Shown: positions 9,001 through 15,000 of the stretch, one piece after another | Layout of the letters: the number at the start of each line of letters is the position of its first letter | Position numbering within the stretch: position 1 is the first letter of the stretch | Assembly: GCA_963709445.1 (NCBI GenBank) | Contig: CAVPWV010000014.1 | Span: forward strand, 3,930 to 67,929 | Direction of reading: 5' to 3' | DNA from: an uncultured Acidobacteriota bacterium | Lineage (GTDB): Bacteria > Acidobacteriota > Terriglobia > Acidiferrales > UBA7541 | DNA length: 64,000 bases | Program-made: the position numbers

Positions 9001-12000
9001 GAACACGAACTTCGGCATTGTCACTGTCAATTTTCCGGAACAGGATGACTTGCGTAGGGCGCGCGGATTCTAGAAATCCCCCCGAGACCAAGATGGCTTG
9101 CATCGCTGTGAGACTGCCGTTGAAGTTAATTTGCCCGGGTTTGCCCACTTCGCCTGCCACTACGACGTACGGCGGTTGGAACTGTTCCAGGACCAAGTTC
9201 AGTTCCGGATCATTCAGCCGCTCGCCTGCTTTGCTAACAATCGTGTCGTGAGCTTGATCGAGCGAGAGATCAAGCACCCTGACATCGCCCACAAGATTCA
9301 AGTTGACGTACCCGTCAGGTGATACCGTCACGGTCTGGTTGAGTTCAGGCGTGTACCTGTACTGAACATCGAGAACGTCTCCGACGCGCAGCTTGTACCG
9401 CGGGCGATGTTGAAGGTCGTCACCGGCATGTGCCCACGTCGCGAAGCAAAGCACTAATACAAAGGGCCATCGCAACATCTTCACGTGATCTCTCCTCACT
9501 CCAAAAACCGCCGCCACTCATAGGATCAGATCGCCTTTAGATACCGGCCGCCGTCATCAGGTGATGGAACCAGGCCGGTATTGCATAAGTCCTCTTGTTC
9601 AGAACATGGCCTAGTACCCGCCCCTTCGCGCTTTCGATACTCCGCTCGGCGTAAAGGATTTGATCCTTCTTTGTTCGGTTAGCTTCCACGACAAGAACGA
9701 CTCCGTCGACAAGAGAAGCCAATCTCACTGCGTCTTGCGTCTCGTTGATCGGAGAACAGTCAATCAGAACGTAGTGATGCTGTGCTCGCAGCCTGCCGAT
9801 GGCACAGGTGAGCGCAGCTTGCACAGCATGCCAGTTGTTTTCCTCATTATCGAAATTGGGTGCTTCCTGGCCCCGCCCTTTTCCATCAAAGTTAAGATTT
9901 ACGAAGCCATCGGGCCTGTGGGCGGTCTGAATCAGGGACCGGCAACTGACGGAAATCGCCAGTTGATCGCTGTCGTGACTTAATCCTTTGGCGAGCGTTC
10001 TAACTACTTCCGACACGCCTGCGCCCCGGTGAGGCGACACAAATGCAACGGCGAATCCTCGCTTGTTACCATCCGGCCGTTCCCGGAAGATATTGAACAG
10101 CAGTCCCTCACAGACAACTTGAAGCTGGGAACGTGTTCGCGAAGATGAGAACTTGATTTTGGCGAATTCGAAATCGAACATATGCACAGCTCCCCTTTTT
10201 CTTCAGATGGCCGCGTTTCTTCCGTTTGCACTGTGGATTGTCATAGTGGATGTTGGACCGTCAGGCGCAACAAGTCCCAGGGAACACGTGCGCCCGGACC
10301 TCCATGACATTTGCGGTACAGTCGCAAGCACGGGATAACGGGAGACGGCATCCAGTTCGCGTGGCGTGGCAATTGTGCTTCTGCTTGTCTCGGCGAAGTA
10401 AACCGCGCACATGCCGAGGAACACGGCGCTGACAAAACCTAGCGCTCCATACAGGAGCGGCTTGGGCCGTTCAGGCTCATAGGCCAGGGTCGGCTGCTGG
10501 GCGACGGCGACATTCAATAATTTGTGTTCGTCCATCGCGTCTTCAATTTGAGCCTGGTCGCGCTTTTGAGCGTAGAGTTGGTAGTTCTCCTTAAGTTCGT
10601 CTGCATGCGCCTGCAGTTCATTGAACTGTCCAGTTAGCGTTTCGAGGCTCGCGAGTTGCTGTTTAAGATCGCCAAGCCTCGAAAGCAATTTAGCTCGATG
10701 TTCCTGTGTCGCATGCCGTGCGATCTCATTCTGAATGTAGCTGGTACGTACCTGTTGCCACGCCGGATCGACGTTCGTTGTCTCCTCTCTCGATGGGCTT
10801 GTCTGTGCGTTATTCAGCGCGGCTCTAGCGGTTTTGATCTGCTGGTCGAGATCCTGCACAAGTCGATCGGTCGGCTTGTAGTTTGTCACCAAGTCAGTTC
10901 GCTTGTTTTCCATTTCGACCACAAGCGTACTGAGCTCCTCTACTAATGATTGGTTGGGCGATACTTTCTCTTCGGAAATCTGCCGGGACGGAACTGCACC
11001 GAGCTGGTGGGAGGCCGCAACCAGTTGAGCGTCCAGTTCGCGCAGGGCGGAGTCGGTTGTGAATAAGTCCTCATCGTCCTCGGTAATCTGCGTATTGAGC
11101 GTTGTTTCCTGATCTGGCAGCGAGACCAGTTGGTGTTCCTGCTGAAAGTCCACTAACTGTTTGGTCGCCGCATCCCAGGCTTGGCGAGTCCGCTCGGCCT
11201 CGGAAGAAAAGAATTCGGAGGCGCCTGCAGGTCGTTGCAGCCGCCTGAGTTCGCCAAGGTAGGAAGCCGACAAGCGCTCAAGAGTATCTCTCGCCTCCTC
11301 AGGGCTTTTCGCCAAAAAACTGACGTCGATGACGTCGGTCTTCCTCACGATGTCAGTGCTTAGTTTCCTATCGAATGTTGCGACGAGCTTCTCATGCTGT
11401 TGTTCCATTTCGGGAGTCCGTTGGCTCGGGCTTAAGCTCGCCCATCCAGGATCGGCCACTGGATCGATCACGTCATGGCTCCGCAGGATCTCTACTTGCG
11501 AATCAACCTGTTCTTCGGTCACATCATTGACTATGTTGGGTGATGTCGTACGTTCCGCACTGACCACAACATTTTCCCTCGTGTTTTGTACGAGGAATTT
11601 CATTTCCGATAGATATTGCTTGCGCATCAAGAGGATGGCGGCGAGTGTCATCAAGAGAACAATGGCCGTTATCCAGAAGAACAAGTGTTTCCTACGGAAG
11701 AACGCCTCGATGCCAATCCGCAGCGTCAAGTCAGATGCAGGGGTAATTACGGATGGGACGATTGCGTTTGCGCGTTGCATACGATCAGACTCCATACTCC
11801 TCCAAGAAAATCCACTAGCCCTCGCGATGGCTCCCGAGAGAACAGATGGAACAATCGTAAGAAGCAAGCGTTATTAAACCTGGTGCTCTAATGTAGTTTC
11901 GTTATATTCACGACGGTCGGCCCGGTTACAGTCTCCCTGTTGAACGCAACGGTCGCCGCGAATCCGCTTACACCCTCAGCGTCCCGCTCGACTCGCACGA

Positions 12001-15000
12001 CAGTTCCTTCGCCATGCAATTGCACATTGCTGCCACCCACTTCCACGGAGGGCAAGTAGACATCCACGTCCAGATGCCCGCCTAGGGGTGGCGCTATGTC
12101 TCCAGTGATGAAAACTCCTCTGTCGCTGATGTCTCGAATTGTGCCCTTGGCCTCTTGCAGTAACCCATCCGGGCGTTCACACGAGAAAAAAGCCGGCGCC
12201 AGAAGTCGATAGCGCCGCGACTTTCTAAGCTCCACCGCAACCTCAGCGAATGACAGACTCGAATGCTTAGCGGACACGGCACCCACCGAATTTTCCGACG
12301 CGATGACAATACGGGCGGTGCAGAAAGACGACAAGAGTCAGATCGTTTGGATGATTGAGTTCTCTAGCTCTCGTGTATTACGAGCAAGACGGCCCCAGAG
12401 ACCTGTAGGCCTTCAGGCGCGAAACGAACAAACTTTGGTTAGAGATGACCGTGGATCAGGGGGGGATGGCCTAGATACAAAAGACTAGGAGAAGAATTAC
12501 TCTAGGCTCCAGGTTTCGCCTGAATGCTGCCATTTCCCAAAATAATGTGTCCAAACATTAAACATGAGTTAGAAATCAATAGAACTCATCGGAAATCGCG
12601 AATTGACAAGAAAGTCCATCGGACCGTAGGATCGGTACTGTTTAACTTCAGACCTTGTTTTTGAAAAAGCAAGTCCAGCCCTTGCAAACCGGCGTGGTGA
12701 CATGTGAGAACAGCGTGCAGCTTGGGCGCAGTGCCTATCAGTGTAACCATAGCAGATGTGAATTTGATGGCTGCTCGTCTGCTTACTGATCAATTCAAGC
12801 GTCATTCTGATTTTGCGGTGGTCTCCTGTGCCGTCGATCGAGATTCATTGCTAAAGTCAGCGCGGGAAGCCAGGGCAGACGTCGCCATTATCAGCGCTGA
12901 CCTACAAGACGGGCTGTTGAGCGGCCTCGCTGCGCTTCGAGAAATTCTTCAGATAAATCCTGATCTGCGGGCTATTCTCTTATTAGACCGACCTGAACCG
13001 CAACTCGTGGTCGAAGCCATGCGTGCGGGTGCGCGGGGAGTCTTTTCGCGAAGCGACTTCGCTTTCGTCTCATTGCGCAAGTGTATCCGTCGAGTTTTCG
13101 AGGGGCAAATCTGGATAGGGAACACAGAACTGCAATACCTGGTCGACGCTCTAACCCAGTCGCGACCGCTGCGCGTCGTAAATGCGGACGGGTTGAATCT
13201 CCTTAGCCGACGGGAGGAAGAAGTTATGCGCTTGGTCGCCGAAGGGTTGGGGAATCGCGACATTGCAGATCTGCTGAATCTGAGCGAGCACACGGTGAAG
13301 AACTATCTCTTCCACATCTTCGATAAATTGGGAATCTCGAACCGCGTCGAACTCGTCTTATATGCAGTCAGCAACCCAAAAACGGTACTTCCCGCGGCTT
13401 CCGAGCAAGAAAAGTCTCTGCCTACCGCCGACCTAAACGTGTAGAGAGCGTCTGGTTGCGAGCTTCTATCCGCATCTCCCGAGGTGCTTCGTTTAGCCTT
13501 TGCCTATTTGCAAAAAAGGGCTTCATTTGCCCTCTGGGTCGACCCCGTGTCGAGAGAAGTCATCGATCTGATCTGCAAGATGAGTCTCGCCAGACCCAAA
13601 CGGGTTGAATCTTCTCAGCCGACGGGAGGAGGAAGTCATGCGCTTGGTCGCTGATGGCTTGGGAAACCGCGAGATCGCCGGGCAGCTCGGTCTCAGTGAG
13701 CACACGGTGAAGAACTACCTCTTCCATATCTTCGATAAGTTGGGAATTTCAAATCGGGTGGAACTCGTGTTATACGCGGTTAGCAATCCGAAGGGGAGCA
13801 CGCCAGCACCTTCGCAGCAGGACAAGCTTCTCGCCGATCCTGTCGGGCGGCGTAGCTAGATACTCGGCACCTTCTTGATCAAACAACATCGTCGGGCGGA
13901 GGAAGGTGTCTGAACGTCAAAACACAGGTTCGGCCGCCGGGTCTCGATTCTTTTTGTTGGCCCCCTGGACTGAGCGCCCACCGTCTCCGTTCGTTGGTCC
14001 ATGTGGTCCGACGCGCTCACGATCCGTTCTTCCATATGCGAGCCATAAATCGACTGGGTTGCCTGAAAGCACCTGTAAGGCCCTCGCGAAATTCCGGGCA
14101 CGAGCATCCACAAACGGCGGTCACACGGAGGTAGTACAGACGCATTAATTCGGATTCAGCACATCACTGGTCGCCGTCGGATCTTATCGCGCGGCGGTGG
14201 ACTCGCGAACCACTCCCGCTTCGCCTCTCTCGCGAGCCAAATACTGATCGTAGATCCACCGGTATGTCGTCTCAAGACCCGTCCGCAGGGGGGTGCTTGG
14301 CTCCCAGTTGAGGTATTTCTGGATCAGCGTATTATCACTGTTTCGGCCATTCACGCCCTTCGGTGCGCTAAGGTCGTAGTTCCGCTGCAGCTTGATTCCG
14401 GCAATCTCTTCTACGAGGTCGACCAATCGATTGATGGTGACACCTTCGCTCGATCCGAGATTGATAGGTTCTTGAATTTTAGAAAACATAATCAAATCGA
14501 TTCCCTTGATGCAGTCGTCGATAAACATGAAGCTGCGCGTCTGATCTCCGGAGCCCCAGATTTCGATCTCATGCTTGCCTGACAACTTAGCCTCGATTAC
14601 CTTTCGGCAAATCGCCGCAGGTGCTTTTTCACGCCCTCCGTACCACGTGCCCCACGGTCCATAGACGTTGTGAAAACGGGCTACGCGCGTGTAGAGAGCA
14701 AAGTCCTCGGTAAAGTGCCGGCACATCCGCTCTGAGAAGAGCTTTTCCCAACCATAACCGTCCTCGGCAAGAGCCGGATAGGCGTCTTCTTCCTTGAGCA
14801 ATGGCGCCTCGAATGTCTTCTGCTTGTCGCCGTTGTAGACGCACGCGGAAGAGGAGAAAAAGAACTTCTCTACCCCGAATTTCACCGCGGCCTGCAACAT
14901 GTGCGTATTGATGAGAACTGAGAGCATGCAAAGCGCCTTATTGGTCTCGATGAATCCCATGCCACCCATGTTGGCAGCGAGATTATAGATTTCATGCGCG

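What the first reader, a model, noticed from the sequence alone, without database searches (positions are those of the whole stretch)
11888..12334. Stand-alone PilZ protein as first gene of a Wzx/Wzy module, directly upstream of the PCP and a dead kinase
The ORF has the two PilZ c-di-GMP-binding motifs: RKSRR, and about 25 aa later DISDRG. It is the promoter-proximal gene of module B, 20 nt upstream of the PCP gene.

Known PilZ control of exopolysaccharides is established for synthase-dependent systems (cellulose BcsA, alginate Alg44). Wzx/Wzy/PCP pathways are normally tuned by a BY-kinase phosphorylation cycle instead.

Here the kinase partner looks catalytically dead (see 9537-10187). My hypothesis is that c-di-GMP-loaded PilZ replaces the ATP/Tyr-phosphorylation cycle as the switch acting on the PCP-OPX machine.
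Basis: partly seen in the sequence, partly recalled or inferred. Interest (0 to 1): 0.65.

Follow-up and report, generated by a model that had tools for sequence, protein, structure and literature searches.

The report
PilZ sensor heading an acidobacterial polysaccharide operon

Summary
The ORF is a genuine PilZ domain: Pfam 29.5 bits against a 22.5 cut-off, RxxxR and DxSxxG conserved in 121 homologs, and an AF2 beta-barrel whose best PDB matches are c-di-GMP-bound PilZ domains. It heads a Wzx/Wzy operon: PCP, a BY-kinase-like protein without the Walker A lysine or a tyrosine tail, OPX, Wzx::GT4, PGT, GT4, Wzy and an acyltransferase.

Two details need correcting. The real start is probably GTG 12235, giving 115 aa. 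The gap to the PCP gene is about 92 nt, not 20.

The family is confined to Terriglobales-like Acidobacteriota.
- In 45 of 49 informative loci, an atypical orphan REC-GerE regulator lies within 1 kb upstream.
- The next gene downstream is OPX (23 loci), a NusG paralog (21), an Ig-repeat protein with no polysaccharide machine (4), or PCP (1, plus the window).
- About 10 loci carry live PCP::BY-kinase fusions and about 20 carry the pseudokinase.

PilZ is therefore not specific to dead kinases. My best model (about 0.45) is a trans-acting c-di-GMP adaptor feeding the neighbouring regulator, analogous to TssZ-HinK. Direct gating of the export machine stays possible (about 0.2). Nothing has been tested biochemically.

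The parts
11888..12334 (-). PilZ ORF as reported (148 aa from TTG). The probable true CDS is 11888..12235 (GTG start, 115 aa, M-ELRKSRRY...).
   Evidence: Pfam PilZ 29.5 bits. 135 homologs, mostly 113-132 aa. The N-terminal 33 codons evolve as non-coding DNA and carry in-frame stops in relatives. GAGG lies 5 nt before GTG 12235.
12212..12226 (-). RxxxR motif (R37-K-S-R-R41), the first c-di-GMP-binding motif of PilZ domains.
   Evidence: R37 and R41 are at least 90% conserved in 121 sequences.
12116..12133 (-). DxSxxG motif (D68-I-S-D-R-G73), the second c-di-GMP-binding motif, 26 residues after RxxxR.
   Evidence: Invariant in the 21-sequence alignment and at least 90% conserved in 121 sequences.
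12236..12703 (.). Divergent control region between PilZ and the regulator gene. It also holds the junction where the polysaccharide cassette was exchanged.
   Evidence: DNA identity to L014 falls from 94-99% (12600-14400) to 76-86% in this region and 60-72% in PilZ. There is no homology after the PilZ stop. A sigma-70-like TTGACA-18-TAGGAT at 12603..12632 (+) points towards the regulator gene.
12488..12503 (-). Conserved imperfect palindrome AGAGTAATTCTTCTCC (GAG-N4-T-N2-TCTC). It is a candidate operator or promoter element of the PilZ-led operon.
   Evidence: Found in 41 of 72 distinct loci against 1.9 expected in shuffles, nearly always 150-350 nt upstream of the core start codon. Its function is inferred.
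12704..13444 (+). Orphan atypical response regulator (REC + GerE/LuxR HTH), divergent from PilZ. It is the near-constant neighbour of this PilZ family.
   Evidence: Pfam GerE 68.7 bits and Response_reg 31.5 bits. Adjacent in 45 of 49 loci. The phospho-acceptor position is D in 25 and T in 13 of 39 sequences. W137 aligns with the Trp of the VpsT WLTR motif but is followed by IGN.
13605..13859 (+). GerE-only partial duplicate of the regulator's C-terminus (84 aa).
   Evidence: 83% identical to regulator residues 162-239. GerE 73 bits. Also present in L007, L014 and L016.
10203..11867 (-). PCP (Wzz/chain-length-determinant type) without a kinase domain. The likely start is ATG 11795.
   Evidence: TIGR03007 at 96.9 bits and Wzz at 22.3 bits, both below their cut-offs. 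GGAGGAG precedes ATG 11795. L117 homology starts at residue 25.
9537..10187 (-). BY-kinase-like pseudokinase: Walker A lysine lost (GAGVS), Walker B-like VLIDCSP kept, no Tyr cluster.
   Evidence: TIGR01007 at 47 bits over residues 129-199 only. Alignment with live fused kinases. About 20 related loci carry the same Lys-less, tail-less type.
8837..9517 (-). OPX outer-membrane polysaccharide export protein.
   Evidence: Poly_export 66.8 bits and SLBB_2 46.4 bits.
770..8825 (-). Rest of the operon: Wzx::GT4 fusion (6141..8825), phosphoglycosyl transferase (4719..6131), GT4 (3540..4703), Wzy (2074..3543), acyltransferase (770..2179).
   Evidence: Pfam hits.

Best explanation
The gene encodes a single-domain PilZ c-di-GMP receptor of about 115 aa. 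It is the first gene of an exchangeable extracellular-matrix operon cassette in Terriglobales-like Acidobacteriota.

It forms a conserved two-gene unit with the neighbouring orphan REC-GerE regulator. That regulator resembles CsgD/VpsT, but it often lacks the phospho-acceptor aspartate and always lacks VpsT's own c-di-GMP motif.

Most likely the PilZ acts as a trans-acting adaptor. It binds c-di-GMP and then binds (or releases) the regulator, changing the regulator's activity at the shared divergent promoter. That sets transcription of the whole operon, including PilZ itself, so the arrangement is a feedback loop.

Shown here: PilZ identity, motif conservation, fold, gene order, and the statistics of the neighbourhood.

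Inferred: c-di-GMP binding, the PilZ-regulator contact, the operator, and co-transcription.
For: - PilZ identity rests on the HMM, the two motifs and the fold.
- The regulator lies within 1 kb upstream in 45 of 49 distinct loci: 40 divergent and 5 co-directional.
- Starting instead from regulator homologs, 3 of 4 have the PilZ next door.
- The downstream cargo varies: OPX first in 23 loci, NusG paralog in 21, Ig-repeat protein in 4, PCP in 1. Kinases can be live, dead or absent. The only common denominator is the regulator and the promoter region.
- The regulator looks unable to take a normal phosphorylation input. Its phospho-acceptor is Thr in 13 of 39 sequences and the Thr/Lys switch residues are absent.
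- The regulator has no VpsT-type W[FLM][TS]R site. In most loci examined no histidine kinase was seen beside it, with L117 as the exception. It therefore needs another input.
- A conserved palindrome-like element lies in the leader in 41 of 72 loci.
- There is precedent. The single-domain PilZ TssZ (PA0012) binds the LuxR-type regulator HinK and blocks its DNA binding in a c-di-GMP-sensitive way (PMC10912698). HapZ binds its partner histidine kinase in a c-di-GMP-enhanced way (cited in PMC11250160).
- PA0012 is among the structural matches.
Against: - There is no direct evidence of a PilZ-regulator contact, and no complex prediction could be run.
- The PilZ allele travels with the polysaccharide cassette, not with the regulator. 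Window and L014 regulators are 97% identical while their PilZ proteins are 63% identical. That also fits co-adaptation with the cargo.
- The PilZ-regulator distance correlation (r = 0.79, Mantel p = 0.001) is confounded by shared descent.
- Gene adjacency to a regulator can simply mean the regulator controls the operon, without any protein contact.
- Four of 49 loci lack the regulator.
Confidence: 0.45

Rival explanations
1. c-di-GMP-loaded PilZ acts post-translationally on the PCP / pseudokinase / OPX export machine, replacing the lost ATP/Tyr-phosphorylation cycle as the on-off switch.
For: - PilZ sits directly before PCP>pseudokinase>OPX in the window, L007 and L117. These are three lineages, with PilZ down to 58% and PCP down to 68% identity.
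- Pseudokinase loci outnumber live-kinase loci about 2 to 1 among PilZ-headed operons.
- The PilZ allele co-segregates with the cassette rather than with the regulator.
- From general knowledge: BY-kinases belong to the MinD/ParA-like fold class, and in E. coli cellulose secretion the MinD-like BcsQ works with the c-di-GMP sensor BcsE. A sensor-plus-dead-ATPase pairing therefore has a distant analogue.
Against: - About 10 distinct PilZ-headed loci carry live-looking PCP::BY-kinase fusions.
- Four loci have an Ig-repeat protein and no polysaccharide machine downstream.
- The immediate neighbour is OPX or NusG far more often than PCP.
- Module A in the same window has a kinase-less PCP and no PilZ.
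Confidence: 0.2
2. PilZ modulates transcription elongation rather than initiation. It would act on the NusG paralog (or RNA polymerase) that accompanies most of these operons, loosely like UpxZ acting on UpxY at Bacteroides capsule loci.
For: - A NusG paralog is present in 22 of 25 long loci.
- It is the gene immediately after PilZ in 21 of 54 loci.
- The PilZ leader is long (about 250-300 nt) with conserved blocks.
Against: - No NusG paralog was found anywhere in this 64-kb window, in L007, or in the Ig-repeat loci. It cannot be the universal partner.
- No literature links PilZ and NusG paralogs.
- No Rfam element is present in the leader.
Confidence: 0.1
3. PilZ is only co-expressed with the matrix operon and acts on a distant target, for example motility or another secretion system. 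It would then link matrix production to another behaviour.
For: - Single-domain PilZ adaptors usually have targets that gene context does not predict, such as MapZ-CheR1 and N5MapZ-HemK (PMC11250160).
- The cargo downstream of PilZ is heterogeneous.
Against: - Its position as first gene next to the same regulator is very stable across about 85 loci and several cassette types.
- The genome scan returned one locus per genome, each from a different MAG.
Confidence: 0.15
4. A degenerate PilZ that no longer binds c-di-GMP and serves as a structural or adaptor subunit, like Xanthomonas PilZ (XAC1133).
For: The Pfam score is modest at 29.5 bits, and some homologs fall below the gathering score (L021 at 21.9 bits).
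Against: Both binding motifs are at least 90% conserved over 121 sequences. Non-binding PilZ proteins typically lack them.
Confidence: 0.05

Closest known systems
TssZ (PA0012)-HinK of Pseudomonas aeruginosa: single-domain PilZ adaptor controlling a LuxR-type transcription factor (PMC10912698)
   Same: Both are stand-alone PilZ proteins of about 100 aa with RxxxR near the N-terminus. In both cases the proposed partner has a GerE/LuxR HTH. PA0012 is among the structural matches.
   Different: TssZ and hinK are not described as a conserved gene pair. The target there is quorum sensing and T6SS, not a polysaccharide operon. Here the partner is a REC-GerE protein, and the interaction is only inferred from synteny.
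VpsT / CsgD-type regulators (Vibrio cholerae VpsT senses c-di-GMP directly and activates the vps polysaccharide genes)
   Same: The neighbouring regulator has the same REC + GerE architecture with an atypical receiver and sits at a matrix locus. Its invariant Trp aligns with the Trp of VpsT's WLTR motif.
   Different: The W[FLM][TS]R c-di-GMP site is absent (W-[IAL]-[GNS]-[NTS]). The c-di-GMP-binding function would be supplied in trans by a separate PilZ gene.
PilZ control of synthase-dependent polysaccharides (BcsA PilZ domain, Alg44)
   Same: Same domain, motifs and fold. Alg44 and BcsA PilZ domains are top structural matches. Both are linked to an exopolysaccharide locus.
   Different: The operon here has no GT-2 synthase or co-polymerase. 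It is a Wzx/Wzy/PCP/OPX pathway. The PilZ is a free protein, and its neighbours vary between loci.
UpxY/UpxZ at Bacteroides capsular polysaccharide loci (from general knowledge)
   Same: In most related loci the first two genes of the polysaccharide operon are a small regulatory protein and a NusG paralog.
   Different: UpxZ is not a PilZ protein. The window itself has no NusG paralog. No evidence of cross-locus inhibition was found.
EpsW-EpsZ of Myxococcus xanthus (PMC12802240)
   Same: A small signalling protein encoded with a Wzx/Wzy pathway regulates it. This shows that such pathways can have post-translational inputs other than BY-kinases.
   Different: EpsW is a single-domain response regulator acting on the priming transferase. 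No c-di-GMP or PilZ is involved.

Membership tests
PilZ domain (PF07238) | Profile HMM score above the curated gathering threshold | tested here: met
   29.5 bits against 22.5, E 1e-6, residues 36-131.
PilZ domain (PF07238) | RxxxR motif in the flexible N-terminal segment | tested here: met
   R37-K-S-R-R41. R37 and R41 are at least 90% conserved in 121 homologs.
PilZ domain (PF07238) | [D/N]xSxxG motif 20-30 residues after RxxxR | tested here: met
   D68-I-S-D-R-G73, 26 residues after R41. Invariant in 21 sequences and at least 90% conserved in 121.
PilZ domain (PF07238) | Six-stranded beta-barrel fold | tested here: met
   The AF2 model has six strands over residues 42-133 with pLDDT about 90. 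Foldseek top hits are 5vx6, 4rt0, 4xrn, 8u0i and 5y6g, probability 1.00, E 2e-4 to 3e-3.
PilZ domain (PF07238) | Binds c-di-GMP | not testable with these tools
   Needs DRaCALA or ITC with wild type and R37A/R41A mutants.
Single-domain PilZ adaptors (MapZ, HapZ, TssZ type) | PilZ is the only domain in the protein | tested here: met
   115-148 aa with one Pfam domain. The N-terminal extension is disordered and probably untranslated.
Single-domain PilZ adaptors (MapZ, HapZ, TssZ type) | c-di-GMP-dependent binding to a defined partner protein | not testable with these tools
   Synteny points to the REC-GerE regulator (45 of 49 loci). No complex prediction or experiment was possible.
PilZ-gated synthase-dependent polysaccharide systems (BcsA, Alg44) | PilZ fused to, or encoded with, a processive GT-2 synthase or co-polymerase | tested here: not met
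   The operon encodes Wzx, Wzy, PCP, OPX, PGT and GT4 enzymes and no GT-2 synthase.
BY-kinase (for the partner at 9537..10187) | Walker A GxxxxGK[ST] | tested here: not met
   SPHRGAGVSE aligns with SxxGEGK[TS] of the fused kinases, so the lysine is replaced by valine.
BY-kinase (for the partner at 9537..10187) | C-terminal tyrosine cluster | tested here: not met
   One Tyr in the last 30 residues, against 3-9 in the fused kinases.
BY-kinase (for the partner at 9537..10187) | Walker B hhhhDxxP | tested here: met
   YVLIDCSP aligns with the Walker B of live kinases.
VpsT-type c-di-GMP-binding regulators (for the neighbour at 12704..13444) | W[F/L/M][T/S]R motif at the start of helix alpha-6 | tested here: not met
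   W137-I-G-N in the window. Across the family it reads W-[IAL]-[GNS]-[NTS]. The Trp aligns with the Trp of VpsT's WLTR.
Canonical phosphorylated response regulators (for the neighbour) | Conserved phospho-acceptor Asp plus Thr/Ser and Lys switch residues | tested here: not met
   D66 is present in the window, but the position is Thr in 13 of 39 family members. The Thr and Lys positions are hydrophobic or Ser/Arg.
NusG-paralog-led polysaccharide operons (UpxY, RfaH, LoaP type) | A NusG paralog encoded at the head of the operon | tested here: not met
   tblastn finds none in the 64-kb window. One is present in 22 of 25 long related loci.

The most novel reading that the evidence does not exclude
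PilZ with bound c-di-GMP docks directly on the kinase-less PCP / pseudokinase / OPX complex and gates polymer export. This would be the first PilZ-mediated post-translational control of a Wzx/Wzy-dependent pathway, with the dead BY-kinase kept as the docking scaffold.
Probability: 0.15. Interest if true: 0.75.

Novelty: new variant of a known kind. Interest (0 to 1): 0.45.

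Why it matters
Acidobacteriota are among the most abundant soil bacteria, and their exopolysaccharides shape soil aggregation and persistence. Almost nothing is known about how they regulate matrix production.

A conserved three-part arrangement recurs across about 85 loci: an orphan regulator, a PilZ, and a matrix operon, usually with a NusG paralog. It gives a concrete, testable entry point for c-di-GMP signalling in this phylum.

It also offers a candidate route by which c-di-GMP could control a Wzx/Wzy pathway, through either transcription or the export machine. 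That control is well understood only for synthase-dependent systems.

In addition, the regulator and PilZ genes mark the edge of a polysaccharide cassette that is exchanged between close relatives.

Tried and rejected
1. A c-di-GMP riboswitch or other known RNA in the leader: no Rfam match at E <= 1 over 11500..14300.
2. The regulator sensing c-di-GMP itself in the VpsT manner: the motif is absent.
3. GGDEF/EAL genes in the window: none among the ORFs scanned. One GGDEF protein lies near the homolog locus L001.
4. A sequence-level PDB match for the PilZ family: none at E <= 1. Only fold comparison worked.
5. The mirror-tree test of PilZ against the regulator (r = 0.79, Mantel p = 0.001): judged uninformative because of shared descent. 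The window/L014 discordance shows recombination between the two genes.
6. The full 148-aa ORF as the protein: rejected in favour of the 115-aa core.
7. Literature on PilZ in Acidobacteria or PilZ with NusG: nothing relevant.
8. Complex prediction of PilZ with candidate partners: not possible, because the structure tool takes one chain and only window or database sequences.

Full report
**1. The observation**

The minus-strand ORF 11888..12334 (148 aa) exists as described. It matches Pfam PilZ (PF07238) at 29.5 bits, above the 22.5 gathering score.
- RKSRR is residues 37-41 and DISDRG is residues 68-73, with 26 residues between them.
- A database search returned 135 homologs, mostly 113-132 aa.
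- In alignments of 21 and 121 sequences, R37, R41, D68, S70 and G73 are each at least 90% conserved. The family also has its own invariant blocks, LHGEG (106-110) and GF (124-125, usually GFAA).
- No PDB sequence matched a profile of the family.
- An AF2 model built on the 121-sequence alignment gives a six-stranded barrel over residues 42-133 with pLDDT about 90, and a disordered N-terminus.
- Foldseek's best PDB hits are PilZ domains, many solved with c-di-GMP: MotI/DgrA 5vx6, Alg44 4rt0, 4xrn, PA0012 8u0i, YcgR 5y6g, MrkH and MapZ.

This is a motif-complete PilZ domain, far beyond chance.

**2. Corrections to the gene model**

The first 33 codons of the ORF do not behave as coding sequence.
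- Against L008 and L032 they show no third-position bias, with synonymous to non-synonymous changes of 4:18 and 3:24. The core shows 43:30 and 36:28.
- Five of eight relatives carry an in-frame stop there.
- GTG 12235 is preceded by GAGG at a 5-nt spacing. Many homologs start MELRK/MDLRR or VELRK.

The protein is therefore probably 115 aa.

The PCP gene most likely starts at ATG 11795, behind GGAGGAG. Homology with L117 begins at PCP residue 25. The PilZ-PCP gap is therefore about 92 nt rather than 20. It holds no terminator-like hairpin. Co-transcription is plausible but unproven.

**3. The surrounding locus**

Downstream on the same strand:
- PCP without a kinase domain.
- A 216-aa BY-kinase-like protein.
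- OPX.
- A Wzx::GT4 fusion.
- A phosphoglycosyl transferase.
- GT4.
- Wzy.
- An acyltransferase.

Aligned with live kinases from related loci, the 216-aa protein has SPHRGAGVSE where they have SxxGEGK[TS]. It keeps a Walker B-like VLIDCSP and has one Tyr in its last 30 residues, against 3-9 in the live kinases.

Divergently upstream lies a REC-GerE response regulator (12704..13444), followed by a GerE-only partial duplicate (13605..13859).

A second Wzx/Wzy module (module A, 14184..38621) has its own giant OPX, a PAP2::Wzi fusion and a kinase-less PCP. It has no PilZ.

No NusG paralog was found in the window by tblastn. No live BY-kinase was found either. No GGDEF/EAL protein appeared among the ORFs scanned.

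**4. Comparative context**

Genome and metagenome scans found the family only in Acidobacteriota MAGs annotated as Terriglobales, Terriglobia, Acidobacteriaceae or simply Acidobacteriota, plus two marginal partial hits. I mapped neighbours by tblastn. The set is 85 distinct core-family loci.
- The regulator lies within 1 kb upstream in 45 of the 49 loci with enough sequence: 40 divergent and 5 co-directional.
- The first downstream gene is OPX in 23 loci, a NusG paralog in 21, a 1169-aa Ig-repeat (Big_7) protein in 4, PCP in 1, and other or none in 5.
- In L021 and L022 the Ig-repeat protein is followed by Nuo genes, so no polysaccharide machine is present.
- A NusG paralog occurs somewhere in 22 of 25 long loci.
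- The four loci without the regulator have other contexts, including an OmpR-type regulator and a Wzx gene.
- Starting independently from homologs of the regulator, 3 of 4 look-ups had the PilZ next door.
- One of those, L117, is a third lineage with the window's exact order PilZ>PCP>pseudokinase>OPX>Wzx.

Kinase status splits the loci.
- About 10 distinct PilZ-headed loci carry PCP::BY-kinase fusions with GEGK[TS] and Tyr-rich tails.
- About 20 carry the stand-alone Lys-less, tail-less protein, usually after an AAA_22 ATPase.

**5.

If PilZ existed to replace a dead kinase at the PCP-OPX machine, it should track dead kinases and PCP. It does not. It occurs with live kinases, with dead ones, and without any export machine. 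It is rarely adjacent to PCP.

Its one near-constant neighbour is the regulator and the shared control region.

The premise is still fair. c-di-GMP control is established for synthase-dependent systems, while post-translational control of Wzx/Wzy pathways is poorly understood (PMC12802240). The PilZ>PCP>pseudokinase>OPX cassette also recurs in three lineages.

**6. The regulator**

Its receiver domain is atypical.
- The phospho-acceptor position is Asp in 25 and Thr in 13 of 39 family members.
- The Thr and Lys switch positions are not conserved as such.
- In most loci examined, no histidine kinase was seen beside it. L117 is an exception.

It resembles CsgD/VpsT in architecture. Its invariant Trp137 aligns with the Trp of VpsT's WLTR c-di-GMP motif, but the following residues are [IAL][GNS][NTS]. 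It should therefore not bind c-di-GMP the VpsT way. It looks like a regulator in need of an input, and the PilZ next door is the obvious candidate.

Precedents exist. TssZ (PA0012) binds the LuxR-type regulator HinK and blocks its DNA binding in a c-di-GMP-sensitive manner (PMC10912698). HapZ and MapZ bind their partners more strongly with c-di-GMP (PMC11250160).

**7. The control region**

An imperfect palindrome, GAG-N4-T-N2-TCTC, lies at window 12503..12488 (AGAGTAATTCTTCTCC).
- It occurs in 41 of 72 distinct loci, against 1.9 expected.
- In nearly all of them it lies 150-350 nt upstream of the core start.
- Further conserved blocks follow it.

This is a candidate operator or promoter element. 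Its function is inferred. No Rfam family matches the region.

**8. Cassette exchange**

Against L014, the window is 94-99% identical over 12600-14400, which covers the regulator and the epimerase side. Identity falls to 76-86% in the intergenic region and 60-72% in PilZ. It is unalignable after the PilZ stop.

So close relatives carry different polysaccharide cassettes beside the same regulator. The junction lies in the divergent control region, and PilZ is the first gene of the exchanged unit.

This weakens a simple co-evolution argument for a PilZ-regulator contact. The r = 0.79 is confounded by descent. The pattern is also compatible with co-adaptation to the cargo.

**9. Verdict**

Shown:
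- A real, conserved, motif-complete single-domain PilZ heads a Wzx/Wzy operon with a pseudokinase.
- It belongs to a lineage-restricted family whose conserved partner in gene order is an orphan atypical LuxR-type regulator.

Inferred, in order of confidence:
- c-di-GMP binding (high confidence).
- An adaptor role feeding the regulator and operon transcription (about 0.45).
- Direct gating of the export machine (about 0.2).
- A distant target (about 0.15).
- Action through a NusG paralog or RNA polymerase (about 0.1).
- A non-binding structural PilZ (about 0.05).

I found no literature on this family. I rate it a new variant of a known kind, namely a single-domain PilZ adaptor in a new, conserved genomic partnership. 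Interest is moderate. The most novel reading, PilZ control of a Wzx/Wzy export machine, is disfavoured by the comparative data but not excluded.

Noticed in passing
window 13605..13859 (+): A GerE-only 84-aa ORF that is a partial duplicate (83% identity) of the C-terminal HTH of the adjacent response regulator. The same fragment sits beside the regulator in L007, L014 and L016. It could be a stand-alone HTH competing for the same operator, or a conserved remnant.
   Followed up: partly
window 12488..12503 (-) and about 12306..12343 (-): Conserved leader elements upstream of PilZ. GAG-N4-T-N2-TCTC occurs in 41 of 72 loci against 1.9 expected. A GAGAA...CTCTTGT block lies nearer the start codon. 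They may be an operator, a promoter or a leader RNA element; which is undetermined.
   Followed up: partly
window 11888..15241 versus L014 and L016: A polysaccharide-cassette replacement between close relatives. The regulator side is 94-99% identical, the junction lies in the regulator-PilZ intergenic region, and nothing is homologous after the PilZ stop.
   Followed up: yes
window 6141..8825 (-): An 894-aa ORF fuses a Wzx-type flippase (Polysacc_synt_3) to a GT4 glycosyltransferase. In the close relative L007 the same region aligns in separate pieces, and the GT part is only 58% identical. The fusion may be real, recent, or a frameshift artefact.
   Followed up: no
window 30844..38621 (-): Module A has a 1218-aa OPX with six SLBB repeats, a 1005-aa PAP2::Wzi fusion ORF that overlaps it by about 400 nt, and a PCP with GNVR but no kinase. 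No PilZ sits at the head of this module.
   Followed up: partly
window 54306..59986 (-): A three-gene set that looks like an imuA-imuB-dnaE2 mutagenesis cassette by its domains: a RecA-like 277-aa protein, an IMS-family protein and a DnaE-type polymerase.
   Followed up: no
L017, L034, L043 and about 15 other loci: The Lys-less, Tyr-tail-less kinase-like proteins form a conserved family ending ...VLGAVLNKRTFPIPExLYRKL. They almost always follow an AAA_22 ATPase, an arrangement reminiscent of PEP-CTERM/XrtA-type polysaccharide loci. The window's version lacks the AAA_22 gene.
   Followed up: partly
L117 6317..7495 (-): In this window-type locus a PAS-HisKA_3-HATPase histidine kinase sits beside the regulator, unlike most other loci examined. 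Some family members may therefore still receive a phosphorylation input.
   Followed up: no
L001/L002 16259..18586 (-): A MASE1-PAS-GGDEF diguanylate cyclase lies four genes downstream of the PilZ-headed operon in this relative. It is a possible local source of c-di-GMP. No equivalent exists in the window.
   Followed up: no
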